Assembly: GCA_013151445.1 (NCBI GenBank)
Contig: JAADIG010000136.1
Location: 6,383-70,382 of the forward strand
Reading direction: 5' to 3'
Source: Actinomycetota bacterium
GTDB taxonomy: Bacteria > Actinomycetota > Acidimicrobiia > Spongiisociales > UBA5794
DNA: 64,000 nt
How positions within the stretch are numbered: position 1 is the first letter of the stretch; each line of letters opens with the position of its first letter. Below are positions 13,932 to 53,041 of this stretch, one piece after another. Below the pieces are notes generated by a model. That model was given only the letters and a program-made list of their open reading frames with translations, did no database searches and was not told where the DNA came from. The translations under genes were made by a program, and so were the position numbers.

Positions 13932-14102
13932 CGCTACCGCAGTCTTGGGAGTCGCTTTGGCAGCCTCCACGACGAGCAGCAGCAACGTGTGAAGGTCGCT
14001 GTGGACTAGTGCGTTGGGTAGTTACTTCGGTCAACGCACAATGGCGCTCCGTACGGACCGCCATTCCTCAAGAAAACGGCCGAATTTGCCGACACTTACA
14101 TC

Positions 14103-27919: not shown

Positions 27920-28725
27920 GCGGTGACGGATTACGTCTGGGGATACTCGGGCGCCCGGCCACCCATTCGCTTTCACCGGCGATACACAACGCGGCTCTCA
28001 TCGCCATGGGAATCATGGGAACCTACGAGGCGTGGGATGTGGACGCCGAGGGAGCGCGGGTGCGTCTGGGAGAGATTCGGACGGGGCGTTTCGATGGGTG
28101 CAACGTGACGATGCCATACAAACGCCTGGCCTTCGATGTCGTCGACGAACGCTCAGACCTCGCCACCCGGACAGGGGCGGTCAACACGGTCACCCGAGCC
28201 GACCGTGTGCTGATCGGGCACAACACGGATGTCGCTGGCATTACCGGGGCATGGGCCCGCCGCAAACTACCGGATGAGGGCCCCGTCTTGATCCTTGGTG
28301 CGGGTGGGGCCGCTGCCGCGGCAGCCGTCGCGCTCAGCGACCGCGAAATCGTGGTTAGTGCTCGTTGCGAGGATGATGCAAACCGGCTGTTGGACACGAC
28401 CGCCACCGCAGGCAGGACCGTACCCTGGGGGACACCGATCGTGGGTGTCGTGGTTAACGCGACCCCCATCGGGATGAATGGAGAATGCCATGATCGAGGA
28501 CTGGTCGACAGTGCAACCGGGTGGTTCGAGATGGTGTATGCACACGGTGAGACGCCTGGTGAACGACAATCACGTACTGACGGCAAACCGGTTGTTTCGG
28601 GGACGGACATGCTTGTCTACCAGGCTATCGCGGCGTTCGAACTCTGGACCGGCAAGACACCGAACATCGAGGTGATGTTGCGGGCGCTGCGTGCGGAGGA
28701 GAGGCACCGCAGTGACCAACAGTAG
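27916..28725 (+). CDS. aroE: Shikimate dehydrogenase
   Basis: GILGRPATHSLSPAIHNAA, NVTMPYK, NTD..G and LGAGGAA (Rossmann fold) are present. The product is 269 aa. Confidence 0.9.
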   Translation: MSGDGLRLGILGRPATHSLSPAIHNAALIAMGIMGTYEAWDVDAEGARVRLGEIRTGRFDGCNVTMPYKRLAFDVVDERSDLATRTGAVNTVTRADRVLIGHNTDVAGITGAWARRKLPDEGPVLILGAGGAAAAAAVALSDREIVVSARCEDDANRLLDTTATAGRTVPWGTPIVGVVVNATPIGMNGECHDRGLVDSATGWFEMVYAHGETPGERQSRTDGKPVVSGTDMLVYQAIAAFELWTGKTPNIEVMLRALRAEERHRSDQQ

Positions 28726-28846
28726 GTTACGCCAGCATCCGTCGTAGACAACCCCTCAAGCCCCCCATCGGGGGTGCCGACAAATTCTCAGATGCCCACG
28801 TTATTCGTGGGTCCGGGAACGAGGTTGGAACCGAGGGAGAGAAGAC

Positions 28847-30523
28847 GTGCCGAGCGACGCCCGCCATTTGGGCACCATGCTTTTGGAAGAGGGTCTTCTT
28901 AGCCGAGAGCAGCTCGATCAGGCGATTGAGACACAACAGACCTCTGGCGTTCCGTTGGGTCGCGTCCTGGTGGAGGAAGGCTTCGTTCTTGAGGCCGATC
29001 TTGTCCGCACCCTTGCCACCCAGATCGGCATCGGGTATGTCGATCTAAGCGAAGAGCAAATCGATCCGGCCGCGGTTGCCGCCGTGCCGGAATACTTGCA
29101 AGATCGTTACACGGTGCTCCCCATCGGCTACGAAGATGGGCGCCTCGTCTGCGCCATGGCCGACCCTGCGAATGTTCTTGCAATCGACGACCTCAGAGCC
29201 GTGACTGGTTTGGATATCGTGACCAAGGTCGCAACTCGTTCCGACCTTGAAGAAGCGATCCGCAGACAGTCGACGTTTGACGAATCGGTCTCCGACCTCG
29301 CCGACCTCGCCGCGGAAGAAGAGGGTGATGTTGATCTGGGCGGTCTCGAGATCGCCGCGGAAGAGGCACCTGTTGTCAAGCTGTTGAATACGCTGATCTC
29401 GCGGGCCGTCAACGAACGAGCATCAGACATTCATATCGAGCCAGGGGAGAAAGACCTTCGCATCCGGTTCCGTATCGATGGTGTCCTCCACGAGGTCATG
29501 CGGACCCCCCGGTCAATTTCCAACGCCGTCGTGTCACGTATCAAGATCATGTCCGACCTCAATATCGCCGAACGCCGGGTACCCCAGGACGGACGCATTT
29601 CATTGCGTGTATCGGGCAAGGCCATCGACCTTCGTACCGCAACGCTGCCCTCGATCTATGGCGAAAAAGTCGTCATGCGTATCCTCGACAAATCTGCCGG
29701 CGTCGCCCCTCTCGCCGACCTCGGTTTTGAACCCTACAACCTCGAACGCTTCAAGGAGGCGTACGAGAAACCCTATGGTGCGATCCTGGTCACCGGTCCG
29801 ACAGGGTCCGGAAAGACAACCACCCTGTACTCGACGCTTGACATCCTCAATAAGGAGGAGGTCAATATCATCACGGTGGAAGATCCGGTCGAATATCGAT
29901 TGAATGGGATCACCCAGGTCCAGGTCAACCGCAAGGCCGGCTTGCTCTTTGCAACGGCCCTCAAGTCGATTCTACGTGCCGACCCGGACGTCATCCTGAT
30001 CGGCGAGATCCGCGACGGGGAAACTGCCGCGATCGCCATCGAATCGGCACTCACCGGGCACCTCGTGCTGTCTACATTGCACACGAACGATGCCGCCTCG
30101 TCGGTCGGGCGCCTCATCGACATGGGTGTGGAGCCCTTCCTCGTGGCATCTGCCCTCGACTGCGTGTTGGCTCAGCGCCTTGCTCGGGTTCTCTGTGAGA
30201 AGTGTAAAAAGAAGGATTCTGCGATTACGGCAGCGATGCTCAAGGACGTTGGTTGGGATGAGGAGCTCCATGGGGACCCCAATGTGTACACCAAGGTTGG
30301 TTGCAAGGCGTGCTCCATGACGGGGTACAAGGGCCGTGTGAGCCTCACCGAGGTGATGCTGGTCAACGAAGAGATTCAACGCCTGATTGTCGATCGTACT
30401 TCCGCTGAGGTCATTGAGAGGGCAGCGTTTGCCTCAGGAATGCGATCCCTGCGCGACGACGGTTTCGCCAAGATCTCTCGTGGCATGACGACGTTCGAAG
30501 AGATCCTAAGGGTTGTCGCCTAA
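28847..30523 (+). CDS. pilB: Type IV pilus assembly ATPase PilB (GspE family)
   Basis: 558-aa ORF with an N-terminal T2SSE_N/MshEN-like tandem motif, Walker A VTGPTGSGKTTT, DVILIGEIRD, the His box TGHLVLSTLHTN, and the tetracysteine CEKC...CKAC typical of assembly ATPases. Confidence 0.92.
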   Translation: MPSDARHLGTMLLEEGLLSREQLDQAIETQQTSGVPLGRVLVEEGFVLEADLVRTLATQIGIGYVDLSEEQIDPAAVAAVPEYLQDRYTVLPIGYEDGRLVCAMADPANVLAIDDLRAVTGLDIVTKVATRSDLEEAIRRQSTFDESVSDLADLAAEEEGDVDLGGLEIAAEEAPVVKLLNTLISRAVNERASDIHIEPGEKDLRIRFRIDGVLHEVMRTPRSISNAVVSRIKIMSDLNIAERRVPQDGRISLRVSGKAIDLRTATLPSIYGEKVVMRILDKSAGVAPLADLGFEPYNLERFKEAYEKPYGAILVTGPTGSGKTTTLYSTLDILNKEEVNIITVEDPVEYRLNGITQVQVNRKAGLLFATALKSILRADPDVILIGEIRDGETAAIAIESALTGHLVLSTLHTNDAASSVGRLIDMGVEPFLVASALDCVLAQRLARVLCEKCKKKDSAITAAMLKDVGWDEELHGDPNVYTKVGCKACSMTGYKGRVSLTEVMLVNEEIQRLIVDRTSAEVIERAAFASGMRSLRDDGFAKISRGMTTFEEILRVVA

Positions 30524-30567
30524 AACGCCGATATTCACGACATGCGAAGCAGGGAGCACGTCTCGAC

Positions 30568-32187
30568 ATGGACACAGTCGATAGGGAACTAGGAGAAATC
30601 CTGGTTGACCGTAGATTGCTGACGCGCGATAGGCTTGAGGAGCATCTCCTCACGGTTGCTTCGTCAGGGACTCCACTGCCCCAGATCCTTGTTGAGGAGG
30701 GCGACGTCTCCGACCGCGATATCCTCGTTTCGGTAGCGGAGCGCCTCAAGGTACGGTTCGTGGACCTCGATGGCCCGGAACGTGTCTTCCCGGATCCGGC
30801 GGCTCTTCGCAAGCTCTCCGCCGACCTCGCACAAGAACTTCAGGTACTCCCGATCGAGATTGAGGAAAGTGGAGCTCTCGTCATCGCTGTCGACGACCCG
30901 CTCGACGAAAAGAGGGCCGAACTGGTCCGCCAAGCAGTCGGCCGCAATATCACGGTTGCACTCGCTTCACGCTCCCTGATCCAGGCCAGCATCGCCCCGG
31001 CCTACCTGGGTCTGAACATTGGATCGTCGCTCGGCGATGCGGCACAAGAGGGCACTACTCGTCAAGAAGTCCGTGAACCAATCACCGCCGATCTCGGTGG
31101 TGCCGCGGTTATCAAGGATCGCCCCCACGTCAATGATCTGCTGCGAGAACTCGTGGAACGGGGAGGGTCGGACCTTCACCTCACCGCCGGTTCGCCACCT
31201 CAGGTGCGCATCAACGGTTCGCTCTACCCGGTCGATGGGTTCGGCCTCCTGAAGCCTGCCCCATTGCGTTCGATGATCTATGAGATTCTCACTGGCCGCC
31301 AGCGCGAGGAGCTCGAAGAGACACGGGAGCTCGACGCCTCACATCCTGTGCCCGGCATCGGCCGTTTCCGTGTCAACGTATTCTTCCAACGAGACGCAGT
31401 AGCGTCCGTGATGCGTGCCATTCCGAACGAGGTGTACTCCCTTGAGGAATTGGGTATGCCTGAAATTGTTCGTGAGTTCGCGACGTACCAGCGCGGCCTC
31501 GTTTTGGTGACGGGACCGACGGGTTCCGGCAAGAGCACGACACTCGCATCAGTCATTGACCTCATCAACTCGTCGCGTGCCGACCACATCATCACTGTGG
31601 AAGATCCGATCGAGTTCACCCACCGCCACAAGATGTCGGTCGTCAACCAGCGAGAAGTTGGGACCGACACCATGAGCTTTGCGTCGGCTCTCAAACACGC
31701 TCTCCGTCAGGATCCCGATGTCATCCTCGTTGGTGAGCTTCGTGACCTCGAAACAATCGCGACGGCGATTACCGCGGCCGAGACAGGCCACTTGGTGTTC
31801 GCAACGCTCCACACCCAGGACGCTCCGAAATCTATCGAGCGAATCATCGACGTGTTCCCCCCACACCAGCAACAGCAGGTCCGGGTGCAGCTCGCCAGTT
31901 CGCTCCAAGCGGTGGTGAGCCAGCAGTTGTTGCGGACCAAGGATGGTACTGGGCGGGCCGCTGCGATCGAAGTGATGGTCGCGACGGCGGCGATCCGCAA
32001 CCTCATTCGAGAGGGCAAGGTCCATCAGATCGCATCGGCCATGCAGGCTGGTGGACGGTTTGGGATGCAAACCATGGATGCCGCGCTTGCGGAACTTGTC
32101 CGGAGAGGCACCGTAACGGAGACGCTCGCTCGCGAACGGTGCCAGGACCCTGATGTCTTTGACGCAATCATGCAAGGAGCCATGTGA
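30568..32187 (+). CDS. pilT: PilT-type retraction ATPase with extra N-terminal T2SSE_N/MshEN-like domain
   Basis: Residues ~186-539 form a PilT core with VTGPTGSGKSTT, ILVGELRD, TGHLVFATLHTQD and the PilT signature AIRNLIREGK. Residues 1-~145 resemble the GspE N-terminal domain (LGEILVDRRLL...RFVDLD...LPIEIEE..LVIAVDDP). Confidence 0.9.
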   Translation: MDTVDRELGEILVDRRLLTRDRLEEHLLTVASSGTPLPQILVEEGDVSDRDILVSVAERLKVRFVDLDGPERVFPDPAALRKLSADLAQELQVLPIEIEESGALVIAVDDPLDEKRAELVRQAVGRNITVALASRSLIQASIAPAYLGLNIGSSLGDAAQEGTTRQEVREPITADLGGAAVIKDRPHVNDLLRELVERGGSDLHLTAGSPPQVRINGSLYPVDGFGLLKPAPLRSMIYEILTGRQREELEETRELDASHPVPGIGRFRVNVFFQRDAVASVMRAIPNEVYSLEELGMPEIVREFATYQRGLVLVTGPTGSGKSTTLASVIDLINSSRADHIITVEDPIEFTHRHKMSVVNQREVGTDTMSFASALKHALRQDPDVILVGELRDLETIATAITAAETGHLVFATLHTQDAPKSIERIIDVFPPHQQQQVRVQLASSLQAVVSQQLLRTKDGTGRAAAIEVMVATAAIRNLIREGKVHQIASAMQAGGRFGMQTMDAALAELVRRGTVTETLARERCQDPDVFDAIMQGAM

Positions 32188-33410
32188 TGGCAGCAACGTT
32201 CGCTTACAAGGTTCGTGACAAACAAGGTCAGATCAGGACCGGCAAGATTGAGGGCCAATCACAGAGCCTGGTAGTCAAGTCGTTGCGCGAAAAGGGGCTG
32301 ACCCCGCTCTCTGTCGAGGAGCAGAAGAACTCCGCTCTGCAGATGGAGATCAAGATTCCGGGTCTCTCGGACCGGGTCAAGGCGAAGGACGTCGTGTTGT
32401 TCTCCCGTCAGTTTGCGACCATGGTCAATTCCGGATTGTCACTGATCCGAGCTCTCTCAGTCCTTGTCGATCAGACAGAGTCGTCGGCATTGGCGCTTGT
32501 TATCCGCACCGTGCGATCGGATGTCGAAAAGGGGACGTCACTCTCCCAGGCCATGGAGAAACATCCGAAGGTGTTCGGTGAACTCTACGTCGCAATGATC
32601 AAGGCCGGTGAAGTCGGTGGTGTTCTCGACGAGACCCTTGAACGTCTTGCTGACATGTTGGAAGCGAACCTCAACCTCCGGTCGAAGATCAAATCCGCCA
32701 TGGCGTACCCGATCGTCGTTGGTGTTTTGATTCTGTTTGTCACGACCGCGATGATCGTGTTCGTAGTTCCGATCTTTGCAGACATGTATGACGAGATGGG
32801 AGGAGGGGCCGCGCTCCCGGCACCCACCCTCGTGCTTGTCGCTTTGTCGAACATCATGACATCGTATTGGTGGGCCCTGATTCTTGGGACCGTCGGGTCT
32901 GTCTTAGGGTTCCGCAAGTGGAAAAGCACCGAATCTGGTCGGTACTACTGGGACACGATAAAGCTGAAGATTCCGGTGTTTGGAAAGCTTGCCCACAAAA
33001 CCTCGCTTTCGCGTTTCGCGCGAACCTTCGCAGTGCTCAGCCGCACCGGCGTACCGATTCTCCAGGCGATCGACATCGTCTCTGCCACGTCGGGAAATCG
33101 CAAGATGTCGCGGGCACTCGAAGATGTCAAGGCATCGGTACGCGATGGTGAGTCGCTCGCCGAACCACTTTCCCGGCACGACATCTTCCCCCCGATGGTC
33201 GTCCAGATGATGACTGTCGGTGAAGAGACCGGGGCACTCGATGCGATGCTCGGGAAGGTTTCCGACTTTTATAATCGCGAGGTTGACGACATGGTGAGCG
33301 CACTCACAAGCCTCATCGAGCCGCTGCTCATCGTCGTGATGGGCATCACCGTCGGGGGCATTCTGATAGCCCTCTACCTTCCGATCTTCAACCTCGCGGC
33401 GATCGTGTAA
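32187..33410 (+). CDS. pilC: Type IV pilus platform protein PilC (GspF family)
   Basis: ~407-aa polytopic protein with two GspF repeats (FSRQFATMVNSGLSL.RAL; FARTFAVLSRTGVPILQA). AAGGAG lies 7 nt before ATG 32187, which overlaps the pilT stop. GTG 32184 is also possible. Confidence 0.92.
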   Translation: MAATFAYKVRDKQGQIRTGKIEGQSQSLVVKSLREKGLTPLSVEEQKNSALQMEIKIPGLSDRVKAKDVVLFSRQFATMVNSGLSLIRALSVLVDQTESSALALVIRTVRSDVEKGTSLSQAMEKHPKVFGELYVAMIKAGEVGGVLDETLERLADMLEANLNLRSKIKSAMAYPIVVGVLILFVTTAMIVFVVPIFADMYDEMGGGAALPAPTLVLVALSNIMTSYWWALILGTVGSVLGFRKWKSTESGRYYWDTIKLKIPVFGKLAHKTSLSRFARTFAVLSRTGVPILQAIDIVSATSGNRKMSRALEDVKASVRDGESLAEPLSRHDIFPPMVVQMMTVGEETGALDAMLGKVSDFYNREVDDMVSALTSLIEPLLIVVMGITVGGILIALYLPIFNLAAIV

Positions 33411-33607
33411 CAACCTGACAGAGCCGTCCGGTTCGCCGAGGCGGCACCAAGGGTTGACGGATGCTTCGCTGGTTCCGCGACTGGCGCTCCGCCTGGACGT
33501 GGCAGTGAGAAATCGCTCAACTATTTTCCCCCATTCGCCGATGGAAACAGCACGGGTGAGTGATATTCACCGCCCCGTAATCTCATTATCTACATGGAGG
33601 TTTGCAT

Positions 33608-34108
33608 ATGCGTTGGATGCGCGAGCGTCTCGACAAAGAAGAGGGTTTCACCCTCATTGAGCTGATGGTTGTAGTGCTTATCATTGCAATTCTTGTTGCT
33701 ATTGCCATCCCGTCGTTCCTGGGTTTCCGCAGTCGTGCACAGGACCGTGCGGTCCAAGCCGAAGTGCGTAACGTTCTTCTCGCTGAGAAGGGTTACTGGG
33801 TTGACAACACGTCGTTCACGACGGTGCAGGCCGACCTGAAGGCATTCGAGTCGAGCATCGTCCTGGATGTCAGTACAACCTCCGCTGTCGAAGAGGGTGT
33901 TGTAGTCACGATGCCCGTTTCGTCGAACAACAACGTTGTGTGTCTCACGCGGACTAGCGATTCCGGCAACATCTTCGCGATCTTCGAAGACTCGTCAGCG
34001 ACCGGTGGTACGTTCTACAGGGCCGTAGCTTCAGGCAGCACACTTGCCTGCCCAACATCCGCAGGAGCACCCACTGGCTGGGTGACCGGCGGCTTCCCGA
34101 CTCCATAG
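33608..34108 (+). CDS. pilA: Type IV major pilin PilA
   Basis: The leader and cleavage site are MRWMRERLDKEEG|FTLIELMVVVLIIAILVAIAIPSF, a textbook class III signal with E5. Two C-terminal Cys residues form a D-region-like pair. GGAGG (33596-33600) lies 7 nt upstream of the ATG. Confidence 0.88.
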   Translation: MRWMRERLDKEEGFTLIELMVVVLIIAILVAIAIPSFLGFRSRAQDRAVQAEVRNVLLAEKGYWVDNTSFTTVQADLKAFESSIVLDVSTTSAVEEGVVVTMPVSSNNNVVCLTRTSDSGNIFAIFEDSSATGGTFYRAVASGSTLACPTSAGAPTGWVTGGFPTP

Positions 34109-34128
34109 AACATCTCGGATCAAACGCT

Positions 34129-34157
34129 AGAGAGGGACGGCGCGGCCGTCCCTCTCT
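34129..34157 (+). terminator. Perfect 13-bp GC-rich hairpin after pilA (putative intrinsic terminator, no U-tract)
   Basis: AGAGAGGGACGGC-gcg-GCCGTCCCTCTCT begins 21 nt after the pilA stop. All 13 pairs were checked by hand. Confidence 0.55.
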
Positions 34158-34247
34158 CGCGTCCCGGGCATCCGCGCCGGTGCCACGAGATTCCCCCATC
34201 CGCAGGTAGGGTCTCATGAGGCAAAATACCAGGAGGAGGTTGTCGAC

Positions 34248-35027
34248 ATGACTGATCAGGTCACAGTTCTTGGCCTTCTTGGCTTACTCGGACTCTCGAT
34301 TGGCTCGTTCATTAACGTTGTTGCGTATCGGGTCCCACTCAAACGATCGGTGATGCGTCCGCCCTCAGCGTGTCCCAACTGCAACCACAAATTGTCGTGG
34401 CGCGAGAACATTCCGGTTATCTCCTGGTTGGTGTTGCGCGGTACATGCAGTGAGTGCGGTATTCACTTTTCTATTCGATACCTCATCGTTGAGGTCCTGA
34501 CCGGTGTCGTCTTCGCGGGTACGGTCGCGGTCATCGGTGTTGACTGGGTGTTGCCCGCGTATCTCTGGTTCGCCGGCGTCACGATCACATTGACACTCAC
34601 CGACCTTGACCACAAGCTCATCCCGAATCGGATCTTGTATCCCGGAATCGTTGTTGGTGCCATTCTGCTGGTCGGGGGTGCCGTCGCGGCGGGGGACCCT
34701 CAAGGCGCGATCCGCGCACTCCTCGCAGGAGCGTCCTATTTTGGTGCTCTACTTGTGATCGCGCTCGTCGCTCCTGCCGGGGGATTCGGGTTCGGTGACG
34801 TGAAACTCGCGATTCTGTTGGGAATGTTCACCGGCTACCTGGGCTGGGGACAGATGAGCGTGGCGTTCTTCTTTGCATTTCTGTTGGGTGGAGTGCTCTC
34901 GATCTTGCTCCTGATCACCGGGACTAAGGGACGTAAGGACGCGATTCCGTTCGGCCCCTATCTGGTTCTCGGAGCGTATGTAGCCATAGTGGCGGGTGAT
35001 CGTATTCTGGATTGGTACCTCGCCTAG
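34248..35027 (+). CDS. pilD: Prepilin peptidase / N-methyltransferase PilD (peptidase A24)
   Basis: It has CPNC...CSEC cysteine pairs, the catalytic Asp motifs TDLDHKLIPN and GFGFGDVKL, and is polytopic. AGGAGGAGG lies upstream of the ATG. Confidence 0.92.
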   Translation: MTDQVTVLGLLGLLGLSIGSFINVVAYRVPLKRSVMRPPSACPNCNHKLSWRENIPVISWLVLRGTCSECGIHFSIRYLIVEVLTGVVFAGTVAVIGVDWVLPAYLWFAGVTITLTLTDLDHKLIPNRILYPGIVVGAILLVGGAVAAGDPQGAIRALLAGASYFGALLVIALVAPAGGFGFGDVKLAILLGMFTGYLGWGQMSVAFFFAFLLGGVLSILLLITGTKGRKDAIPFGPYLVLGAYVAIVAGDRILDWYLA

Positions 35028-35161
35028 TCCCATCGCGGGCTCGGAAATGGATTCGGTTTGTGGTGGTGATACTCCGATGCCTAAGCTCGTTTCAGATCAG
35101 TAGTTAGTCCTCGGCGCGCCCCCTAGCTACTGGAAGGCGGAGTTTTCTAGGTGGAGAAGAG

Positions 35162-36226
35162 ATGGCGGTCTCAATTGGGCTGGACATAGGCGGTGAAGCC
35201 GTCCGGGTCGCTGTCTTAGACACCTCGAAAGCGAAACGAACCCTCCGCCGATATGTCGAGATGCCTCTCCCCGCGGGAGCCGTGGTCGCTGGGGATATTC
35301 TTGATGAGGGCGCCGTCGCCGAAGTTGTTGCTGCGATCTGGAAACGCCACAAGCTTCCGCGCAGGGGTGTCGTCGTAGGAACCGCCAACCAGCGTCTGGT
35401 GGTTCGCCAGGTAGATCTTCCACAAATGGAAGAATCCGAACTCGCAGAGGCTCTGCCGTTCCAGGTGCAGGACTCGATCCCGATGGGCGTCGACGAAGCT
35501 GTGTTGGATTTCGTGCCACTCGAAGAGTTCGTGACGCCCGGGGGAGAGCCGATGATGTCCATCCTGGTTGTCGCCGTGCATCGCGACGTCGTTGATACGT
35601 TGATGCGGGTCCTGGGTGAGGCGAAGATATCGCCAAAGGCAATCGATCTGCAGAGTTTCGGCCTCGTCCGTGCGGTGTACGGAATGGCGCCTGCCGTTGA
35701 CAATCCACTTCAGCTCATCGTTGATATCGGTGCGACGGTGACTCAGGTCGTCATCGCCAAGGGTGGGTCGGCTCGGTTCGTCCGGCTGCTGCCCCGCGGA
35801 GGCGACGCGTTTACCAAGGCGCTTGAAGATGGCATGAACGTCGACCGGGAGGACGCAGTTGAAACGAAGGCGCGCGTCGGAGTGGAACCCGAGCGGGGAC
35901 TCGAAACCGACGACGCGGATGCACCAGCCAGAGGCATTCTGACCCAGGCTGGTGATCAGCTGATCGAAGAGGTCCGCGGGTCAGTCACATTCTTTCGGTC
36001 CCAGAACAACAACGAAGAAGTGGTGCGGCTGGTGGTCGCCGGCAACGGGGCACGGATGCCTCACCTGGCGAACCGGCTAGCAAGCGATCTCGGCATCCCG
36101 CTGGAGCCAGCCCGGATTCTCGACCTCGTCAACGTCGGTCGTGTCGGCCTCTCGGATGAGGAAATGCAAGCGGCCCAGCCGGTGCTGCCAACAGCAATCG
36201 GGTTGAGCCTCTGGGGAGAGCTCTAG
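35162..36226 (+). CDS. pilM: Type IV pilus assembly protein PilM (actin-like ATPase fold)
   Basis: 354-aa ORF with IGLDIGGEAVRVAVLD and DIGATVTQVV phosphate-binding-like motifs. It directly abuts pilN. Confidence 0.88.
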   Translation: MAVSIGLDIGGEAVRVAVLDTSKAKRTLRRYVEMPLPAGAVVAGDILDEGAVAEVVAAIWKRHKLPRRGVVVGTANQRLVVRQVDLPQMEESELAEALPFQVQDSIPMGVDEAVLDFVPLEEFVTPGGEPMMSILVVAVHRDVVDTLMRVLGEAKISPKAIDLQSFGLVRAVYGMAPAVDNPLQLIVDIGATVTQVVIAKGGSARFVRLLPRGGDAFTKALEDGMNVDREDAVETKARVGVEPERGLETDDADAPARGILTQAGDQLIEEVRGSVTFFRSQNNNEEVVRLVVAGNGARMPHLANRLASDLGIPLEPARILDLVNVGRVGLSDEEMQAAQPVLPTAIGLSLWGEL

Positions 36227-36844
36227 ATGCGTGCCATTAACCTGCTCCCTCCGGAGAGTTTTCAGAAACAGGCGACCCGACGCAAACTCGCAGGTGTCGT
36301 CATCGCGGGAATCGCATACCTGGCAGTGCTCGCTGTAGTCACGACGCTACTTGGCGGCCGGATCGGCGAGATCGAGAGCCGAATCGAAGTACAGCGGGCG
36401 ACCAACGACGGGTACCAGTCCCAGATCTTGGAGCTCGCCTCAATGGAGGACCTGCTTACCGAGTACGCGGCCCAGAGGGCCACGCTCGAAACCATCCTGG
36501 CACGCGACGTATCCTGGGGACGAGTGCTCAACGACCTCTCCCGGGTGATCCCCGATCGGACCTGGCTCACAAGCTTCAGCGGGTCGACCAACCTGGCCCT
36601 TGACACCCCCGGGGTCGGTTCGATCCGGATGACCGGTGTGGCGTTCGACTTCCCGGACGTTTCCGCGTGGCTGCGATCACTCGACGCTGACACGTTTCCG
36701 GCGGGTGAGGGGACGTGGGTGTCAACGATCATTGATTCGCTGGAGGGGGAAATCGAGGTACTGAACTACACGAGCCAAACGACGCTGACGGCCGCGGCAG
36801 ACGCGCAACGGCGTGAGGATCGAATTCCCGAGGTGAGCCCGTGA
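36227..36844 (+). CDS. pilN: Type IV pilus assembly protein PilN
   Basis: The N-terminal MRAINLLPPE is the conserved PilM-binding INLLP motif. It is followed by one TM helix and a coiled coil. Confidence 0.78.
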   Translation: MRAINLLPPESFQKQATRRKLAGVVIAGIAYLAVLAVVTTLLGGRIGEIESRIEVQRATNDGYQSQILELASMEDLLTEYAAQRATLETILARDVSWGRVLNDLSRVIPDRTWLTSFSGSTNLALDTPGVGSIRMTGVAFDFPDVSAWLRSLDADTFPAGEGTWVSTIIDSLEGEIEVLNYTSQTTLTAAADAQRREDRIPEVSP

Positions 36845-37542
36845 AGCGCACCACCCTCGCGTTCGGATTTCTTGGGGTCTTCTTGGTAACGTTGCTGTGG
36901 TGGACGTTCGTCATCGGCCCGCAGAACTCTGACGTCGACCGTGCGAATCAGGAATTGCAGGCCGAAGAGGACAGTACCCTCACACTGCAGACGCGACTTG
37001 CCAGGCTCAAAGAGATCAAGGCAAACGAGGTTTCGTATCAGTTTGCGATCGGAGCGATGCAGAGTTCGATTCCTGAGGAGCCCGAGCAGGCCGCCTTCAT
37101 CTCGGACATCAACTTTCTGGCTGACAGCACGGGTGTCCGTATCTCACAGGTGTCCCTGGCGCCACCGGCCCCGAGCCTATCCGAAACCGAAACGCCGGTG
37201 TTCGAGGTCGCTGTATCAGTCACGGTCACCGGCCAGTACTTTGAGGTGCTCGGATTCCTTTACGGGATCGAGGCGATGGACCGTCTCGTGAGAACCGATT
37301 CCATCACGCTCAGCCCGATTGAGACGGTTGATGAATCCGGCGATGGCGGGGAGGACGCCTCGGGGGACACCACGGTCAAGCAACGGCGTCCGGTGTCCGA
37401 GCTGACCATCGACCTGAACCTGCGGCTCTTTACGAGAACGGGTGTACTGGTAAAGCTCATCGACGAGGCAGTGACAGACGGCACGACGGCCGCTGACGGC
37501 AATACCGTGGACGATGGTGCCAGTCAGGTGGTCGGGGAATGA
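36841..37542 (+). CDS. pilO: Type IV pilus assembly protein PilO-like
   Basis: It has an N-terminal TM helix, a coiled coil (ANQELQAEEDSTLTLQTRLARLKEIK), a PilO-like core and an acidic C-terminal tail. The start GTG overlaps the pilN stop (GTGA). Confidence 0.7.
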   Translation: MKRTTLAFGFLGVFLVTLLWWTFVIGPQNSDVDRANQELQAEEDSTLTLQTRLARLKEIKANEVSYQFAIGAMQSSIPEEPEQAAFISDINFLADSTGVRISQVSLAPPAPSLSETETPVFEVAVSVTVTGQYFEVLGFLYGIEAMDRLVRTDSITLSPIETVDESGDGGEDASGDTTVKQRRPVSELTIDLNLRLFTRTGVLVKLIDEAVTDGTTAADGNTVDDGASQVVGE

Positions 37543-38057
37543 GGGCAGGCAACCGCTACATCGTGGCTCTCACGGGCTCATTGCTGCTTATCGCAGCGGG
37601 TGTTTTCGCAGGATGGATGATGATTTCTTCGGGAGTGCTCTCCTCGGTTTCCGAAGCATCCCAGGGACCATCACGGCCAATTGTCGCTGTCGCAGATGGG
37701 CTCGGGCAGGAAGCGCCGCCGGTCAACGTTGTCGCCGGTTCGTTCCAGTTGTCCCAACCGCGCGACCCCTTCCGACCGTTGGTCGGTGACGGATCTCGCG
37801 GTGGCCTCCCCGGTGTTGGTGGCGGGGGCGATGGTGGAACGTTCAACCCGTCCAATACGATCACACTTCAGGCAATTACGACGGTAGACGGGGTGTTGCA
37901 AGCAACTGTTGTGGTAAATGGGACGTCCTATCAGGTTGGCGTGGGAGACACCTTCGCTGGTTCATACAAGGTCGTGAGTCTGACGGCCGACAAGGGTGTC
38001 TTCATGTTCGGTGACACCGCGTTCGAGCTTGCGGTCGGCCAACAGATCCTGAAGTAG
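37539..38057 (+). CDS. Membrane-anchored PilP/GspC-HR-like protein (hypothetical)
   Basis: It has an N-terminal TM anchor, an RDPFRPL motif, a Gly-rich linker and a C-terminal beta-rich block (LQAITTVDGVLQATVVVNGTSYQVGVGDTFAGSYKVVSL). It is the last gene of the pilMNO unit (ATGA overlap). Confidence 0.45.
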   Translation: MRAGNRYIVALTGSLLLIAAGVFAGWMMISSGVLSSVSEASQGPSRPIVAVADGLGQEAPPVNVVAGSFQLSQPRDPFRPLVGDGSRGGLPGVGGGGDGGTFNPSNTITLQAITTVDGVLQATVVVNGTSYQVGVGDTFAGSYKVVSLTADKGVFMFGDTAFELAVGQQILK

Positions 38058-38087
38058 CGAGAACTCCGCTCTTGAGCGGAGCCCCGA

Positions 38088-38125
38088 GATGAGAGGGCCG
38101 CCGCCACGGCCCTCTCATCCTTTTG
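38088..38125 (+). terminator. Intrinsic terminator closing the pil cluster
   Basis: GATGAGAGGGCCG-ccgcca-CGGCCCTCTCATC is a perfect 13-bp stem followed by CTTTTG. A smaller hairpin (38064-38081) precedes it. Confidence 0.75.
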
Positions 38126-38170
38126 CCAGCCCACTTCCGTCGATTCGCCGAAAGCCCTACTCTCACACCC

Positions 38171-39319
38171 ATGTTTCGATATCTCACTGCAGGTGAATCT
38201 CACGGGCCGGGGCTGGTTGCTGTCGTTGAGGGACTTCCCTCGGGCATCGAGGTGACCGCTGAGAGCCTCTCCGACGAGTTGGCTCGTCGCCGATTGGGCT
38301 ATGGGCGTGGCAGACGCATGCGGCTCGAACAAGATGAGATCGAGTTTCTTGGGGGAGTGCGGTTCGGCAAGACTCTCGGGTCGCCGGTCGCGATTCTTAT
38401 CCGCAACACCGAGTGGCCCAAGTGGAAAGCGGAAATGTCGGCGGCACCCGGTGAGTCGGATCGACCGCTCACCACCCCGCGCCCCGGTCATGCCGACCTG
38501 GTCGGGATGATGAAATATGACACACGGGACGCCCGCGATATTCTTGAACGTGCCTCGGCCCGAGAAACTGCGGCGCGAACGGCCGTCGGATTCCTTGCGA
38601 AACGTCTGCTCGGTGTCGTCGGTGTCACCGTGTTCTCCCACGTGGTCGAGATCGGGTCCGTTGCATCCTCGGGTCCCACGCCTTCGTTTAGTGATCTTGG
38701 CGCAATTGATGCCTCGCCGGTCCGGGTGTTCGATGCGACTGCGGAGACCGAGATGATTGCGGAGATTGAGGCTGCCAGGGCCGACAGAGACACCCTCGGA
38801 GGTGTTGTTGAGGTGGTCGTTGAGGGTCTCGTCGCTGGGATCGGATCGCACGTCCACGGTGATCGACGTATCGACGCCCGGCTGGCGGAAGCGCTTATGT
38901 CCATTCAAGCGATCAAGGGTGTCGAGATCGGTGACGGCTTCGAGTCCGCTCGCCGCAGGGGTTCGGATGCTCACGACGAGATCTATCGGACCGAGGGGCA
39001 GTACACCCGTCACACCAACCGTGCCGGGGGTACCGAGGGTGGCATGACCGTGGGCGGAATGCTGCGTGTACGAGCTGCGATGAAGCCAATCTCGACGGTT
39101 ATGAAGCCGCTAGACACGGTGAATGTTGAAACACGACAAGCCGAAAAGGCCTTCCGCGAGCGCAGCGACGTGATTGCGGTGCCTGCCGCGGGCGTCGTTG
39201 CCGAAACCATGGTCGCAATCACCCTGGCGCAAGAGATGCAACGGATGTTTGGCGGTGACACCGTGGGAGATTTTGCGGCTGCCGTTGATCGCTATCGAAG
39301 CCGCCTCGAGGACTTCTAA
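38171..39319 (+). CDS. aroC: Chorismate synthase
   Basis: MFRYLTAGESHGPGLV is the canonical start, and RPGHAD and GGRSSARETA-like motifs are present. The ORF-track TTG at 38123 lies inside the terminator T-tract. Confidence 0.95.
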   Translation: MFRYLTAGESHGPGLVAVVEGLPSGIEVTAESLSDELARRRLGYGRGRRMRLEQDEIEFLGGVRFGKTLGSPVAILIRNTEWPKWKAEMSAAPGESDRPLTTPRPGHADLVGMMKYDTRDARDILERASARETAARTAVGFLAKRLLGVVGVTVFSHVVEIGSVASSGPTPSFSDLGAIDASPVRVFDATAETEMIAEIEAARADRDTLGGVVEVVVEGLVAGIGSHVHGDRRIDARLAEALMSIQAIKGVEIGDGFESARRRGSDAHDEIYRTEGQYTRHTNRAGGTEGGMTVGGMLRVRAAMKPISTVMKPLDTVNVETRQAEKAFRERSDVIAVPAAGVVAETMVAITLAQEMQRMFGGDTVGDFAAAVDRYRSRLEDF

Positions 39320-52803: not shown

Positions 52804-53037
52804 GTGTCACTTATTGAACCCCCAATCGGACGGTTGCTCGAGAAGGCGGGAACCCGGTTCGGGCTCGTCGTCTTGGCATCGCGCCGGGCCCGGCAGATCA
52901 ACGCCTATTTCAACGAATTAGGTGAGGGCCTCGGATCCTATGTTCCCCCTCAGGTCCATTCGTTGTCGCGCAAGCCGCTGTCTATCGCGCTTGAAGAGAT
53001 CGACGCCGACAAGGTGACGACCGCTCCTAGCGAGTAA
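52804..53037 (+). CDS. rpoZ: DNA-directed RNA polymerase subunit omega
   Basis: The product reads ...RFGLVVLASRRARQIN.... GTG 52804 lies 7 nt after GGAGG (52792-52796). The ORF-track start at 52750 would overlap gmk. Confidence 0.85.
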   Translation: MSLIEPPIGRLLEKAGTRFGLVVLASRRARQINAYFNELGEGLGSYVPPQVHSLSRKPLSIALEEIDADKVTTAPSE

Positions 53038-53041
53038 CACC

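What the first reader, a model, noticed from the sequence alone, without database searches (positions are those of the whole stretch)
28847..38125. Complete type IVa-pilus-like machinery wedged into the shikimate operon (aroE | pil | aroC-K-B) of an actinobacterial backbone
The genes pilB-pilT-pilC / pilA / pilD / pilM-pilN-pilO-pilP-like sit exactly between aroE and aroC and are closed by a strong terminator.

The flanks (alaS-ruvX-mltG-aroE and aroCKB-efp-nusB) are the canonical actinobacterial order. From memory, many Actinobacteria carry only a lone prepilin-peptidase-like gene at this same junction (for example Rv2551c next to aroE in M. tuberculosis). That would make this cluster look like the intact ancestral state of a locus that is vestigial elsewhere, rather than a recent island. 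I saw no integrase, repeats or tRNA at the borders.

Retractile (PilT-containing) T4aP systems are poorly characterised in Actinomycetota, where Tad/Flp pili dominate the literature.
Basis: partly seen in the sequence, partly recalled or inferred. Interest (0 to 1): 0.65.

Follow-up and report, generated by a model that had tools for sequence, protein, structure and literature searches.

The report
Actinobacterial type IV pilus cluster by aro genes
A hydrothermal-vent Acidimicrobiia bacterium carries a full set of type IVa pilus genes between two shikimate-pathway genes; this looks like an old, inherited arrangement that many relatives, including Mycobacterium, have cut down to a single peptidase gene.

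Summary
pilB, pilT, pilC, pilA, pilD, pilM, pilN, pilO and a PilP-like gene fill 28847-38057 between aroE and aroC and end in a 13-bp GC hairpin.

- In 80 Actinomycetota genomes sampled through AroC, the junction holds pil genes (7), a lone A24 peptidase (26, plus 5 without a visible aroE), or nothing detected (36).
- Lone peptidases group with PilD of pil-bearing relatives in line with the AroC tree.
- In a PilC-centred metagenome sample, aroE lay upstream in 22 of 23 assessable clusters and aroC downstream in 11 of 11.
- Composition shows no island.

- The pilMNO(PQ)-aroKB linkage is already documented in Proteobacteria, so the cluster is not "wedged in".
- The lone peptidases keep both catalytic Asp motifs, so they are not simply vestigial.

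New points:
- PilT carries a PilB-like N-terminal GSPII/MshEN domain.
- The last gene has a PilP/GspC-HR fold although there is no secretin.
- WhiG/FliA-type promoter motifs precede pilB, pilA and a probable minor-pilin operon at 14103-17939.

It is a variant of a known system, of moderate interest.

The parts
14067..14095 (+). WhiG/FliA (sigma-28)-type promoter-like motif CTCAAG-N15-GCCGACAC, 8 nt before the ATG of the 525-aa ORF
   Evidence: One of only three window matches to the published queries T(A/C)AA-N16-GCCGA and CTCA-N16-17-GCCGA (sequence). Function is inferred.
14103..15680 (+). Probable large minor pilin (525 aa), N-terminus ...KRGEGG|FTIVESMMAAGILLVAIVL
   Evidence: Class III signal-peptide motif read from the sequence. 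Weak N-terminal hits to GspI, HpsB and ComGE minor pseudopilins, E 7e-4 to 1e-2, all below cut-offs. 32% identity over 76 aa to the 537-aa PKD pilin of L124, E 4e-7. Inferred.
15656..16345 (+). Probable minor pilin (229 aa), ...NDQG|MTLPEVTVATMITLMV
   Evidence: Motif in the sequence. N_methyl 16.6 bits, below the 21.2 cut-off. TIGR02532 14.3 bits, below the 16.3 cut-off. Inferred.
16329..17939 (+). PilX-like 536-aa protein with a pilin-like hydrophobic N-terminus (DEKG|VAMAIVVMGML, no Glu5)
   Evidence: Sequence. No family hit. It holds the same position in the trio as the DUF7305 proteins of L124 and L160. Weakest assignment.
27916..28725 (+). aroE (shikimate dehydrogenase), left flank
   Evidence: Pfam Shikimate_dh_N plus SDH_C.
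28755..28783 (+). WhiG/FliA-type promoter-like motif CTCAAG-N15-GCCGACAA in the 121-bp aroE-pilB spacer
   Evidence: TCAAG-N15-GCCGA is also upstream of pilB in L001, L082, L083, L084 and L085.
28847..30523 (+). pilB extension ATPase (558 aa) with an N-terminal MshEN/GSPII domain carrying both 24-residue c-di-GMP motifs
   Evidence: T2SSE 471.8 bits, MshEN 66.9 bits. TIGR02538 632.6 bits, below the equivalog cut-off of 675.65. NF053729 c-di-GMP motif 63.6 bits against a cut-off of 38. Walker A GPTGSGKTT and CxxC...CxxC read from the sequence.
30568..32187 (+). pilT retraction-type ATPase (539 aa): PilT core at aa 188-528 plus a PilB-like N1D (GSPII/MshEN-like) at aa 5-146
   Evidence: TIGR01420 488.6 bits against a cut-off of 319. 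AIRNLIRE motif in the sequence. The core aligns with solved PilT chains from their residue 3-28 (6ojx, 417 bits), and aa 5-146 match PilF, PilB, XpsE and MshE N-domains. The N-terminus is 35% identical to the PilB N-terminus, E 3e-19.
32184..33410 (+). pilC platform protein
   Evidence: Two T2SSF repeats, 229.9 bits. Best NCBIfam hits are PilC families, below their equivalog cut-offs.
33516..33544 (+). WhiG/FliA-type promoter-like motif CTCAAC-N15-GCCGATGG, 64 nt before the pilA ATG
   Evidence: CTCAA and CCGAT are invariant in six relatives whose spacers are otherwise unalignable. A match lies upstream of pilA in 22 of 75 loci, against 0-1 for housekeeping controls.
33608..34108 (+). pilA major pilin (166-aa precursor; Gly-1, Phe+1, Glu+5; two C-terminal Cys)
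   Evidence: N_methyl 33.3 bits; TIGR02532; sequence. It matched the stricter pilin regular expression; apart from one chance match inside a non-pilin ORF (near 59752), no other ORF in the 64 kb did.
34129..34157 (+). 13-bp GC hairpin after the pilA stop, without a U tract (attenuator or mRNA-stabilising stem-loop)
   Evidence: -37.5 kcal/mol, z = -5.0. The role is inferred.
34248..35027 (+). pilD prepilin peptidase / N-methyltransferase type (259 aa)
   Evidence: A24_N_bact 111.2 bits plus Peptidase_A24 52.5 bits. CxxC...CxxC and both Asp motifs (LTDLDHKLIP, GFGFGDVKL) are present.
35162..36226 (+). pilM actin-like cytoplasmic component
   Evidence: PilM_2 133 bits. TIGR01175 181.9 bits against a cut-off of 133.
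36227..36844 (+). pilN (bitopic; N-terminal INLLP PilM-binding motif)
   Evidence: PilN 38.7 bits; MRAINLLPP in the sequence.
36841..37542 (+). pilO
   Evidence: PilO 43.8 bits.
37539..38057 (+). PilP-like protein: TM helix at aa 3-31, a disordered linker with the invariant motif QPRDPF, and a beta domain at aa 107-171
   Evidence: Alignment A3. AlphaFold model. Foldseek PDB top 12 are PilP (2ivw, 2lc4, 2y4y), GspC-HR (3oss_C, TMt 0.77, rmsd 2.0) and GspB (4wfw). Some homologues carry PF16537.
38088..38124 (+). Intrinsic-terminator-like hairpin (13-bp stem, 6-nt loop, CUUUU) closing the pil genes
   Evidence: the spacer folds at -39.4 kcal/mol, z = -5.5.
38171..39319 (+). aroC (chorismate synthase), right flank, followed by aroK, aroB, pepP, efp and nusB
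   Evidence: Pfam. 59% identical to M. tuberculosis AroC (1ztb).

Best explanation
This is a chromosomal, vertically inherited type IVa pilus (T4aP) machine of the monoderm (secretin-less) kind, in an uncultured hydrothermal-vent member of the class Acidimicrobiia.

How it most likely works (all steps are inferred from family membership and motifs):
- PilD cleaves the 13-residue leader of PilA after Gly and probably N-methylates Phe1.
- PilC forms the membrane platform.
- PilM binds the INLLP N-terminus of PilN.
- PilN, PilO and the membrane-anchored PilP-like protein form the alignment subcomplex.
- The PilB hexamer drives extension. It is predicted to be gated by c-di-GMP through an intact MshEN motif pair.
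- A PilT-family hexamer drives retraction. Unusually, it carries its own PilB-like N1D domain with degenerate c-di-GMP motifs.
- Three probable minor-pilin genes at 14103-17939 supply the priming or tip complex.
- Transcription probably starts at three WhiG/FliA (sigma-28)-type promoters, before pilB, pilA and the minor-pilin operon.
- A hairpin follows pilA, and a terminator separates the cluster from aroCKB.

Evolution:
- The position between aroE and aroC is shown here to be shared across two classes of Actinomycetota and several unclassified lineages. It extends the pilMNO(PQ)-aroKB linkage already known in Proteobacteria.
- The cluster has been reduced repeatedly. Intermediates such as pilD-pilMNO-aroC exist. 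Many lineages, Mycobacterium included, keep only an A24 peptidase. Streptomyces and Microbacterium keep nothing detectable.
For: Identity of the parts:
- Pfam and NCBIfam hits for eight of the nine genes.
- PilP/GspC-HR fold for the ninth.
- PilT core against solved PilT structures, and its N1D against the N-domains of extension ATPases.

Conservation of the position:
- L001 has the identical 22-gene order at 63% PilD identity.
- In the AroC-centred genome sample of 80 loci, 7 hold pil genes, 26 a lone A24 gene with aroE, 5 an A24 gene without a visible aroE, 36 nothing detected, and 6 were unassessable.
- In the PilC-centred metagenome sample, aroE lay upstream of pilB in 22 of 23 assessable loci and aroC downstream in 11 of 11.

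Orthology and vertical descent:
- The A24 tree is congruent with the AroC tree, and lone and pil-linked peptidases are interleaved.
- Mantel tests give PilM against AroC r = 0.72, p = 2e-4, and PilD against AroC r = 0.34, p = 2e-4.
- Lone peptidases keep both Asp motifs, and most lack the Cys4 N-domain.
- Intermediates exist: L020 and L025 have pilD-pilMNO-aroC with unrelated genes upstream.

No island signals.

Real DNA: the locus is contiguous in three metagenome assemblies.

Deeper linkage: E. coli hofMNOPQ-aroK-aroB, and Weaver et al. 2020, PMC7545093.

Promoters:
- There are three window matches, all intergenic and on the coding strand.
- The pilA motif is conserved in relatives.
- Matches are enriched upstream of pilA (22 of 75) and pilB (5 of 25), against aroC 1 of 92, alaS 0 of 57 and efp 0 of 70.
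- The consensus comes from PMC12871210.
Against: - There is no expression or phenotype data. No RNA run holds the locus.
- The trees are neighbour-joining, midpoint-rooted, without bootstrap or outgroup, so 'ancestral' is a parsimony argument.
- The metagenome loci have no taxonomy. The deepest ones are called Actinomycetota only because relatives of their AlaS carry that name.
- PilB and PilC score below NCBIfam equivalog cut-offs.
- The minor-pilin assignment rests on N-terminal motifs and sub-threshold hits.
- The count of promoter motifs alone is weak: 3 observed against 1.0-2.0 expected. No WhiG/FliA gene is in the window.
- The tetranucleotide correlation of the pil region (0.955) is slightly lower than that of any other chunk (0.963-0.986).
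- Whether a PilT with an N1D still retracts is unknown.
Confidence: 0.75

Rival explanations
1. The lone A24 peptidase is the older resident of the aroE|aroC junction. The other pil genes accreted around it later, and the finished cluster then spread within the phylum by recombination through the conserved flanks. On this view the junction is a hot-spot and the cluster is not the ancestral state.
For: - The pil state is patchy. Only 7 of 80 AroC-sampled genomes have it, and the window's closest AroC relatives (L002, L004, L006; 69-72% identity) have only the lone gene.
- The conserved flanks would allow homologous replacement.
- PilD distances correlate only weakly with AroC distances (r = 0.34).
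Against: - PilM distances track AroC distances (r = 0.72, p = 2e-4).
- Lone peptidases show progressive loss of the N-terminal domain, which fits decay rather than a primitive state.
- Intermediates of the form pilD-pilMNO-aroC exist.
- pilMNO next to aroK-aroB is also the rule in Proteobacteria, which argues that pilMNO, not just pilD, is old at this site.
- Gene order and strand are the same in all lineages.
Confidence: 0.15
2. The cluster is a recent horizontally acquired island from another phylum, inserted into the shikimate operon.
For: - The tetranucleotide correlation of the pil region is the lowest of all 9-kb chunks (0.955 against 0.963-0.986), and GC is slightly lower (0.589 against 0.608).
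- Close relatives lack it.
Against: - No integrase, tRNA or border repeats.
- GC3 equals that of the flanks (0.691 against 0.678). The small GC drop sits in the membrane-protein genes pilC and pilD.
- The same insertion point, order and orientation occur in relatives down to about 50% PilC identity.
- The best PilD and PilP-like homologues are all Acidimicrobiia or Actinomycetota MAGs.
Confidence: 0.04
3. The machine is real, but its job is not twitching. It would be a DNA-uptake (competence) pilus, or an adhesion-only pilus whose N1D-bearing 'PilT' acts as a second extension or regulatory ATPase rather than a retraction motor.
For: - An N1D is otherwise the hallmark of extension ATPases (PMC11656802).
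- E. coli hofMNOPQ at the same aro linkage is annotated as DNA utilisation.
- The only characterised actinobacterial T4aP (Actinoplanes zoospores) mediates adhesion (as cited in PMC12871210).
- PilT can also promote extension in the V. cholerae MSHA system (title of PMC9815625).
Against: - The ATPase core is an unambiguous PilT/PilU family member: 488.6 bits against a cut-off of 319, with the AIRNLIRE motif present. It is closest to solved retraction ATPases.
- No comEA or comEC gene was found among the window genes that were scanned.
- DNA uptake itself needs retraction, so this rival is partly compatible with the main explanation.
Confidence: 0.2

Closest known systems
Monoderm type IVa pili of Firmicutes (Clostridium perfringens / C. 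difficile pil loci; Streptococcus sanguinis pil locus)
   Same: - One contiguous cluster encodes PilB, PilT, PilC, pilin(s), PilD, PilM, PilN and PilO, with no secretin.
- The pilin has a T4a-type N-terminus.
- Some PilB proteins have an MshEN c-di-GMP site (C. perfringens PilB2; PMC11656802; PMC6916266).
   Different: - This cluster has a PilP-like HR-domain protein after PilO. From my own knowledge, the Firmicutes systems lack this.
- PilT carries an N1D.
- The minor pilins are split off to a second locus.
- The cluster lies between aroE and aroC.
Proteobacterial T4aP alignment/secretin operon pilMNOPQ-aroK-aroB (P. aeruginosa, Neisseria, V. cholerae; E. coli hofMNOPQ)
   Same: - pilM-pilN-pilO-pilP lie in this order directly upstream of shikimate genes on the same strand (PMC7545093).
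- The PilP beta domain has the same fold.
   Different: - There is no PilQ here.
- aroC precedes aroK-aroB.
- PilP is anchored by a TM helix rather than as a lipoprotein.
- In the model Proteobacteria, pilB/T/C/A/D are scattered at other loci (own knowledge). Here all lie in one block.
Actinobacterial T4aP clusters already reported (Actinoplanes missouriensis zoospore pili, Kimura et al. 2019; WhiG-controlled pil clusters of Rubrobacter, Cellulomonadaceae, Jonesiaceae, Sanguibacteraceae, Cryptosporangiaceae)
   Same: - Same phylum.
- T4aP gene sets preceded by WhiG/FliA-type promoters (PMC12871210). The window's pilA, pilB and minor-pilin operon carry exact matches to the published queries.
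   Different: - That preprint does not mention Acidimicrobiia.
- The held papers searched do not mention the aroE|aroC position or the link to the lone peptidase.
- The Kimura paper itself could not be read.
Rv2551c-type lone A24 peptidases of Mycobacteriales
   Same: - Same junction, strand and family. The Mycobacterium sp. L059 gene lies between aroE and aroC, is 146 aa long and scores Peptidase_A24 48.5 bits against a cut-off of 26.5.
- Both catalytic Asp motifs are kept.
   Different: - They lack the A24_N_bact Zn-finger domain. PilD HMM scores are 23-49 bits for the Mycobacteriales genes (23-99 across class Actinomycetes), against 149-418 for pil-linked PilD.
- No other pil gene is adjacent.
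- From my own knowledge, they may serve the Tad/Flp pilins encoded elsewhere. This was not tested here.
MshE / PilB / PilF N-terminal GSPII (MshEN) domains
   Same: - The PilB N-terminus has both 24-residue motifs with the 5-residue spacer and passes NF053729 (63.6 bits against 38).
- PilT aa 5-146 is homologous to these domains.
   Different: - In PilT the second Gly of motif I is Arg, motif II lacks its Gly, and the terminal Gln residues are lost. This holds consistently across orthologues, and the score of 30.3 bits is below the cut-off.
- The domain is attached to a retraction-type core.

Membership tests
Type IVa pilus system (T4aP) | Extension ATPase PilB with N1D plus a T2SSE core | tested here: met
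   T2SSE 471.8 bits, MshEN 66.9 bits. The best NCBIfam hit is TIGR02538, at 632.6 bits, although below the equivalog cut-off of 675.65.
Type IVa pilus system (T4aP) | Dedicated PilT-family retraction ATPase | tested here: met
   TIGR01420 488.6 bits against a cut-off of 319. AIRNLIRE motif in the sequence. 6ojx 417 bits.
Type IVa pilus system (T4aP) | Single polytopic platform protein PilC | tested here: met
   Two T2SSF repeats, 229.9 bits.
Type IVa pilus system (T4aP) | Major pilin with a short class III leader, Gly-1, Phe+1 and Glu+5 | tested here: met
   MRWMRERLDKEEG|FTLIELM; N_methyl 33.3 bits.
Type IVa pilus system (T4aP) | Bifunctional prepilin peptidase (A24 domain plus N-terminal Zn-finger/methyltransferase domain) | tested here: met
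   A24_N_bact 111.2 bits plus Peptidase_A24 52.5 bits. Cys4 and both Asp motifs are present. Enzyme activity is not testable here.
Type IVa pilus system (T4aP) | PilM-PilN-PilO alignment proteins | tested here: met
   PilM_2 133 bits, PilN 38.7 bits, PilO 43.8 bits. INLLP motif in PilN.
Type IVa pilus system (T4aP) | PilP (HR-domain protein) | tested here: met
   Met by fold only. The top 12 Foldseek hits are PilP, GspC-HR and GspB, with probability 0.95-1.0 and E 7e-3 to 0.14. There is no sequence-family hit.
Type IVa pilus system (T4aP) | Outer-membrane secretin PilQ (diderm systems only) | tested here: not met
   No secretin lies in the cluster or among the window ORFs that were scanned. 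Absence is expected for a monoderm. This places the system with monoderm T4aP, not the diderm archetype.
Type IVa pilus system (T4aP) | Set of minor pilins | tested here: inconclusive
   None lies in the cluster. Three candidates at 14103-17939 have pilin-like N-termini but only sub-threshold family hits.
PilT/PilU retraction ATPases | No N-terminal GSPII/N1D domain (the feature said to distinguish retraction from extension ATPases, PMC11656802) | tested here: not met
   aa 5-146 is a GSPII/MshEN-like domain. Solved PilT chains are 356-390 aa long and align from their residue 3-28. The architecture recurs in 17 related loci and in about 10 of the top 150 50%-identity clusters.
MshEN c-di-GMP-binding domain | Two 24-residue motifs RLGxxLLxxGLLxxxxLxxxLxxQ separated by 5 residues | tested here: met
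   Met for PilB: NF053729 63.6 bits against a cut-off of 38, with both motifs readable. Not met for PilT: 30.3 bits, with key Gly and Gln residues replaced. Ligand binding is not testable here.
Tad/Flp (type IVc) pilus | TadZ/CpaE, two platform paralogues TadB/TadC, and a short Flp pilin | tested here: not met
   The cluster has one PilC, a 153-aa mature pilin with a T4a N-terminus, and no TadZ.
Type II secretion system | GspD secretin, GspC, GspL/M and five pseudopilins, with no PilT | tested here: not met
   PilT is present. There is no GspD or GspC, and only one pilin.
Genomic island / mobile element | Integrase or transposase, tRNA or direct repeats at the borders, deviant composition, patchy presence at variable sites | tested here: not met
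   The site is fixed in 22 of 23 and 11 of 11 related clusters.
WhiG/FliA (sigma-28) regulon | Promoter T(A/C)AA-N16-GCCGA or CTCA-N16-17-GCCGA within 200 nt of a start codon (PMC12871210) | tested here: met
   Three exact matches, before pilB, pilA and the minor-pilin operon. They are conserved and enriched in relatives. The presence of the sigma factor and the transcription start sites are not testable here.

The most novel reading that the evidence does not exclude
Two readings that the evidence does not exclude:

(1) The N1D-bearing PilT is a ligand-gated retraction motor. Its GSPII domain, homologous to that of PilB, would give this lineage reciprocal control of extension and retraction, by second messenger or by partner protein, directly at the two motors. 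The usual rule that an N1D marks an extension ATPase would then fail for a whole clade of Actinomycetota.

(2) The Rv2551c-type peptidase of Mycobacterium and its relatives is the last survivor of an ancestral T4aP cluster. It would have been retained because it was recruited to process Flp/Tad or other class III substrates.
Probability: 0.3. Interest if true: 0.65.

Novelty: new variant of a known kind. Interest (0 to 1): 0.5.

Why it matters
- **Origin of an unexplained gene.** It gives an evolutionary origin, and therefore a testable function, for the small A24 peptidase gene next to aroE in Mycobacterium, Rhodococcus, Gordonia, Nocardioides and many others. That gene would be the remnant of a pilus cluster that other Actinomycetota still keep whole.
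- **An older linkage than thought.** It extends the pilMNO(PQ)-aroKB linkage, so far documented for Proteobacteria, to a Gram-positive phylum. The neighbourhood would then be very old.
- **A natural exception to a rule.** A clade of PilT motors carries a PilB-type regulatory domain, so 'N1D means extension ATPase' does not always hold.
- **An open role for PilP.** A PilP-like protein in a machine without a secretin raises the question of what the HR domain binds in monoderms.
- **A compact regulon.** Three WhiG/FliA-type promoter motifs point to a small pilus regulon in Acidimicrobiia, a class with almost no genetics.
- **Limits.** None of this changes the basic picture of type IV pili, and all of it is inference from sequence.

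Tried and rejected
- **Viral contig scan with PilB**: no relatives. It served only to learn how the tool picks its patterns.
- **Reading Kimura et al. 2019** (PMC6597397): not held.
- **Literature search for 'Rv2551c'**: one cloning paper only. Searches combining prepilin peptidase with chorismate synthase or shikimate kinase, or T4P with aroE, found no paper on this synteny.
- **Naming the deep-branching metagenome lineages.** An AlaS search for L121 gave only 'Actinomycetota bacterium'. The cluster look-up gave no names. Class-level placement (Thermoleophilia or Rubrobacteria?) stays open.
- **RNA evidence.** No RNA run holds pilA. Run X5 is of unknown kind and shows flat contig depth.
- **Rfam scan for a c-di-GMP or other riboswitch** in the pil spacers: nothing. 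One RsmV hit at 16 bits against a gathering score of 100 is chance.
- **Sigma-70 promoter scan**: no enrichment, 2 found against 3.2 expected.
- **First pilin regular expression.** It missed the minor-pilin candidates because position +7 was too strict. They were found only through the shared promoter motif.
- **An apparent absence of ruvA/ruvB after ruvC.** This was an artefact of my greedy ORF picking. Both genes are present at 4799-5428 and 5298-6473.
- **My recollection that Streptomyces has a peptidase at this junction.** It was wrong. In the sampled Streptomyces loci no A24 gene was detected, and aroE mostly lies about 175-685 bp from aroC (one locus has a 3-kb gap).
- **Homology of the window's minor-pilin trio to the in-cluster trios of L124 and L160.** Only the N-terminal helices align.

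Full report
**1. What is there**

The window has about 60% G+C throughout. Almost all of its genes lie on the + strand. The scanned genes are the conserved actinobacterial housekeeping backbone:
- an acyltransferase, a GT4 glycosyltransferase, pdxS, pdxT, yebC, ruvC, ruvA, ruvB, queA, tgt, yajC, secD, secF and relA;
- three ORFs that at first had no annotation;
- an MBL hydrolase, hisS, aspS, mgsA, alaS, ruvX, mltG and aroE;
- the region of the finding;
- aroC, aroK, aroB, an M24 peptidase, efp, nusB, pyrR, and two ORFs read as pyrB and pyrC from their conserved position and their L001 counterparts (not scanned in the window); then carB, pyrD, pyrF, gmk, priA, def, fmt and rsmB.

Between aroE (27916-28725) and aroC (ATG at 38171) lie nine co-oriented genes. 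Pfam and NCBIfam identify eight of them: PilB, a PilT-family ATPase, PilC, a type IV pilin, a two-domain prepilin peptidase, PilM, PilN and PilO.

The ninth gene (37539-38057) has no sequence-family hit. I collected 173 homologues, nearly all unnamed proteins of Acidimicrobiia or Actinomycetota MAGs, aligned 53 of them and predicted the structure.
- It has an N-terminal membrane helix, then a disordered linker with the invariant motif QPRDPF.
- It ends in a beta domain of about 65 residues with pLDDT above 95.
- The 12 best Foldseek matches in the PDB are all PilP, GspC-HR or GspB domains. One example is 3oss_C, with TM-score 0.77 normalised to the target and rmsd 2.0 A.

The cluster ends in a 13-bp GC stem followed by CUUUUG (38088-38124; z = -5.5). 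A second 13-bp stem follows pilA (34129-34157; z = -5.0).

The same DNA is contiguous, without structural variants, in three independent hydrothermal-vent metagenome assemblies. The best homologues of PilD are Acidimicrobiia MAGs.

**2. Is it an island?**

No.
- There is no tRNA in the window, no direct repeat at the borders and no integrase among the annotated neighbours.
- GC3 of the pil genes (0.691) equals that of the flanks (0.678).
- The tetranucleotide correlation of the pil region with the whole window is 0.955, a little below the 0.963-0.986 of other chunks. The small deviation sits in the membrane-protein genes.

**3. Synteny across the phylum**

A 3.7-Mb contig whose PilD is 63% identical (L001) has exactly the same order from alaS to carA.

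*AroC-centred genome sample.* I scanned one genome per GTDB species with an AroC alignment, which is unbiased with respect to pil genes. The scan was cut at 600 pattern matches, so the 80 loci kept are taxonomically broad. I mapped the window's proteins and a PilD HMM onto them and found three states at the junction:

| State at the aroE|aroC junction | Loci | Examples |
|---|---|---|
| pil genes directly upstream of aroC | 7 | two Acidimicrobiia-type MAGs, five lineages of class Actinomycetes |
| lone A24 peptidase between aroE and aroC | 26 | the window's nearest AroC relatives, other Acidimicrobiia, Mycobacterium, Rhodococcus, Gordonia, Nocardioides, Kribbella, Terrabacter, Lapillicoccus, Brevibacterium, Nanopelagicus |
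| A24 gene before aroC, no visible aroE | 5 | L031, L053, L068, L070, L075 |
| nothing detected | 36 | all Streptomyces, Kitasatospora, Microbacterium, Herbiconiux, Agromyces, Arthrobacter |
| not assessable | 6 | |

*PilC-centred metagenome sample.* This sample is unbiased with respect to aro genes. Among clusters with 48-98% PilC identity, aroE lay upstream of pilB in 22 of 23 assessable loci and aroC downstream in 11 of 11. Some of these contigs have an AlaS that is 50% identical or less to any named locus. Relatives of that AlaS are annotated only as 'Actinomycetota bacterium'. The arrangement therefore reaches lineages that I could not place.

**4. Orthology of the lone peptidases**

- In a neighbour-joining tree of the A24 domain, the window and L001 PilD fall among the lone peptidases of exactly the Acidimicrobiia subclade that the AroC tree defines.
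- The pil-linked PilDs of class Actinomycetes fall next to the lone genes of Terrabacter, Lapillicoccus and Kribbella.
- The Mycobacteriales genes form a long-branched group.
- Pairwise PilM distances correlate with AroC distances (Spearman 0.72, Mantel p = 2e-4). PilD does so more weakly (0.34, p = 2e-4).
- All pil-linked PilDs keep the CxxC...CxxC N-terminal domain and score 149-418 bits on the PilD HMM (205-418 leaving out the frameshifted L058).
- Lone genes range from full length (L048, L005, L009) to the A24 domain alone. The Mycobacterium gene is 146 aa long and scores Peptidase_A24 48.5 bits.
- Nearly all keep both catalytic Asp motifs. They look like working peptidases that have lost the methyltransferase-associated domain, not pseudogenes.
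- Intermediates exist. L020 and L025 have pilD-pilM-pilN-pilO-aroC with unrelated genes upstream and no pilB, pilT or pilC within 5.6 kb.

Taken together, this favours repeated reduction of an old cluster over repeated gain. The trees are unrooted NJ trees without support values, so the polarity is a parsimony argument.

**5. The linkage is older and already known in part**

- In E. coli K-12, hofM-N-O-P-Q is followed directly by aroK-aroB.
- Weaver et al. 2020 state that in Proteobacteria the pilMNOPQ cluster is flanked downstream by aroK and aroB, 'consistent with literature precedent' (PMC7545093).
- The right-hand border of this cluster (pilM-N-O-P-like, then aroC-K-B) is the actinobacterial version of that neighbourhood.
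- The cluster is therefore not 'wedged into' the shikimate operon. The pil-aro link appears to predate the phylum.
- What the held literature did not show is the full cluster between aroE and aroC in Actinomycetota and its decay to the Rv2551c-type gene.

**6. An unusual PilT**

- The second ATPase is 539 aa long, not about 350. Residues 188-528 are a clear PilT/PilU core: TIGR01420 488.6 bits against a cut-off of 319, AIRNLIRE present, and 417 bits to Geobacter PilT 6ojx.
- Residues 5-146 are a GSPII/MshEN-type N1D. They are 35% identical to the N-terminus of the neighbouring PilB (E 3e-19). They match the N-domains of PilF, PilB, XpsE and MshE in the PDB.
- A 2024 review states that the N1D distinguishes extension from retraction ATPases (PMC11656802). 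This PilT breaks that rule.
- The architecture is not a start-codon artefact. The L001 gene was called at 533 aa with both domains. Seventeen related loci align from residue 1. About ten of the top 150 clusters at 50% identity share it.
- More distant clusters have a canonical PilT (24 loci).
- PilB keeps both 24-residue c-di-GMP motifs (NF053729 63.6 bits against a cut-off of 38). In PilT the motifs are consistently degenerate (30.3 bits; Gly to Arg in motif I, Gly lost in motif II).

**7. Regulation and a second locus**

- Aligning the pilC-pilA spacer of six relatives showed only two conserved blocks, CTCAA and CCGAT, 16 nt apart.
- These match the published actinobacterial WhiG/FliA promoter queries T(A/C)AA-N16-GCCGA and CTCA-N16-17-GCCGA (PMC12871210).
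- The window has exactly three matches. All are on the + strand and all lie in spacers just upstream of genes: before pilA (33516), before pilB (28755) and before an unannotated ORF at 14103. The count alone is weak, at 1-2 expected.
- Across all loci, a match lies within 250 nt upstream of pilA in 22 of 75 cases and of pilB in 5 of 25. The controls give aroC 1 of 92, alaS 0 of 57, efp 0 of 70 and pilC 1 of 72. The background is 0.11 per kb.
- The third match led me to three ORFs (14103-17939) with pilin-type N-termini: KRGEGG|FTIVES..., NDQG|MTLPEV... and DEKG|VAMAIVV....
- Family hits for these three are only sub-threshold.
- Their sizes and order (a large pilin, a pilin of about 220 aa, a large third protein) mirror the minor-pilin sets that lie inside the pil cluster in distant relatives. 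Those sets include an N_methyl plus PKD pilin and DUF7305 proteins.
- I read them as the minor-pilin operon of the same system, moved to a site between relA and hisS. This is inference.

**8. Mechanism, novelty and score**

The most likely function is a retractile, secretin-less T4aP used for surface attachment, twitching and possibly DNA uptake. Control would be by a sigma-28-type factor, with c-di-GMP acting on PilB. Every functional step is inferred.

T4aP gene clusters in Actinomycetota are already known:
- from a genome survey (Denise et al. 2019, as cited in PMC6916266);
- from Actinoplanes zoospores;
- from WhiG regulon predictions.

The system is therefore a variant of a known kind. 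What is new is the evolutionary link to the lone peptidase, the N1D-PilT, the PilP-like protein without a secretin, and the extension of WhiG-type control to Acidimicrobiia. Interest is moderate (0.5).

Noticed in passing
window 14103-17939 (promoter-like motif at 14067-14095): Three ORFs (525, 229 and 536 aa) between relA and the MBL-hydrolase/hisS genes have pilin-type N-termini. They are preceded by the same WhiG/FliA-type motif as pilA and pilB, so they are a probable minor-pilin operon outside the coordinates of the finding. The -10 element ends only about 8 nt before the ATG, which suggests a leaderless transcript.
   Followed up: partly
window 30568-31130 (PilT aa 1-187): PilT carries a GSPII/MshEN-like N1D homologous to that of PilB (35% identity). 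Its c-di-GMP motifs are degenerate. The architecture is shared by 17 related loci but absent from more distant actinobacterial clusters.
   Followed up: yes
window 30524-30567: Three bases after the pilB stop codon lies GCCGATAT (30527-30534), a perfect sigma-28-type -10 element. The -35 element has one mismatch. Relatives with a longer pilB-pilT spacer (L086, L090, L102, L104, L115) have full TCAAG-N15-GCCGAAA matches there, so pilT may have its own promoter.
   Followed up: partly
L115 5717-6625; L007 8005-9219: Some relatives have a gene for a DUF4388 protein between aroE and pilB, or between aroE and the lone peptidase. The L115 copy also has a MarR-like winged-helix region. It may be a regulator of the cluster. 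The window, with its 121-bp aroE-pilB spacer, lacks it.
   Followed up: partly
L121, L124, L134, L151, L045, L160: Distant clusters carry two or more pilins, a modular pilin of about 500-620 aa (N_methyl plus PKD in L124) and a DUF7305 protein, either between pilA and pilD or after the PilP-like gene. L143 and L153 have two tandem pilB genes.
   Followed up: partly
L058 (MAG contig CAWARY010000019.1): pilD and pilM are broken into several frames, and the aroC-aroK-aroB-pepP-efp-nusB block appears twice in tandem, 5.6 kb apart. This is probably a long-read assembly artefact and not biology.
   Followed up: no
L009 (record titled 'uncultured Burkholderiales bacterium'): The locus has the actinobacterial order alaS-ruvX-mltG-aroE-A24-aroC, and its AroC groups with Acidimicrobiia-type MAGs. 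The bin label looks wrong.
   Followed up: no
window 38123-38170: The longest aroC ORF starts at TTG 38123, just past the terminator hairpin (38088-38119) and inside its U-tract tail. Homologues, M. tuberculosis AroC included, align from the ATG at 38171 (MFRYLTAGESHG). The true start is probably 38171.
   Followed up: yes
window 46068-46697 (-), 52918-53610 (-): These minus-strand ORFs with high GC3 have no Pfam hit. At least the first probably overlaps an unscored + strand gene (carA is expected between pyrC and carB). They are likely artefacts of my ORF picking.
   Followed up: no
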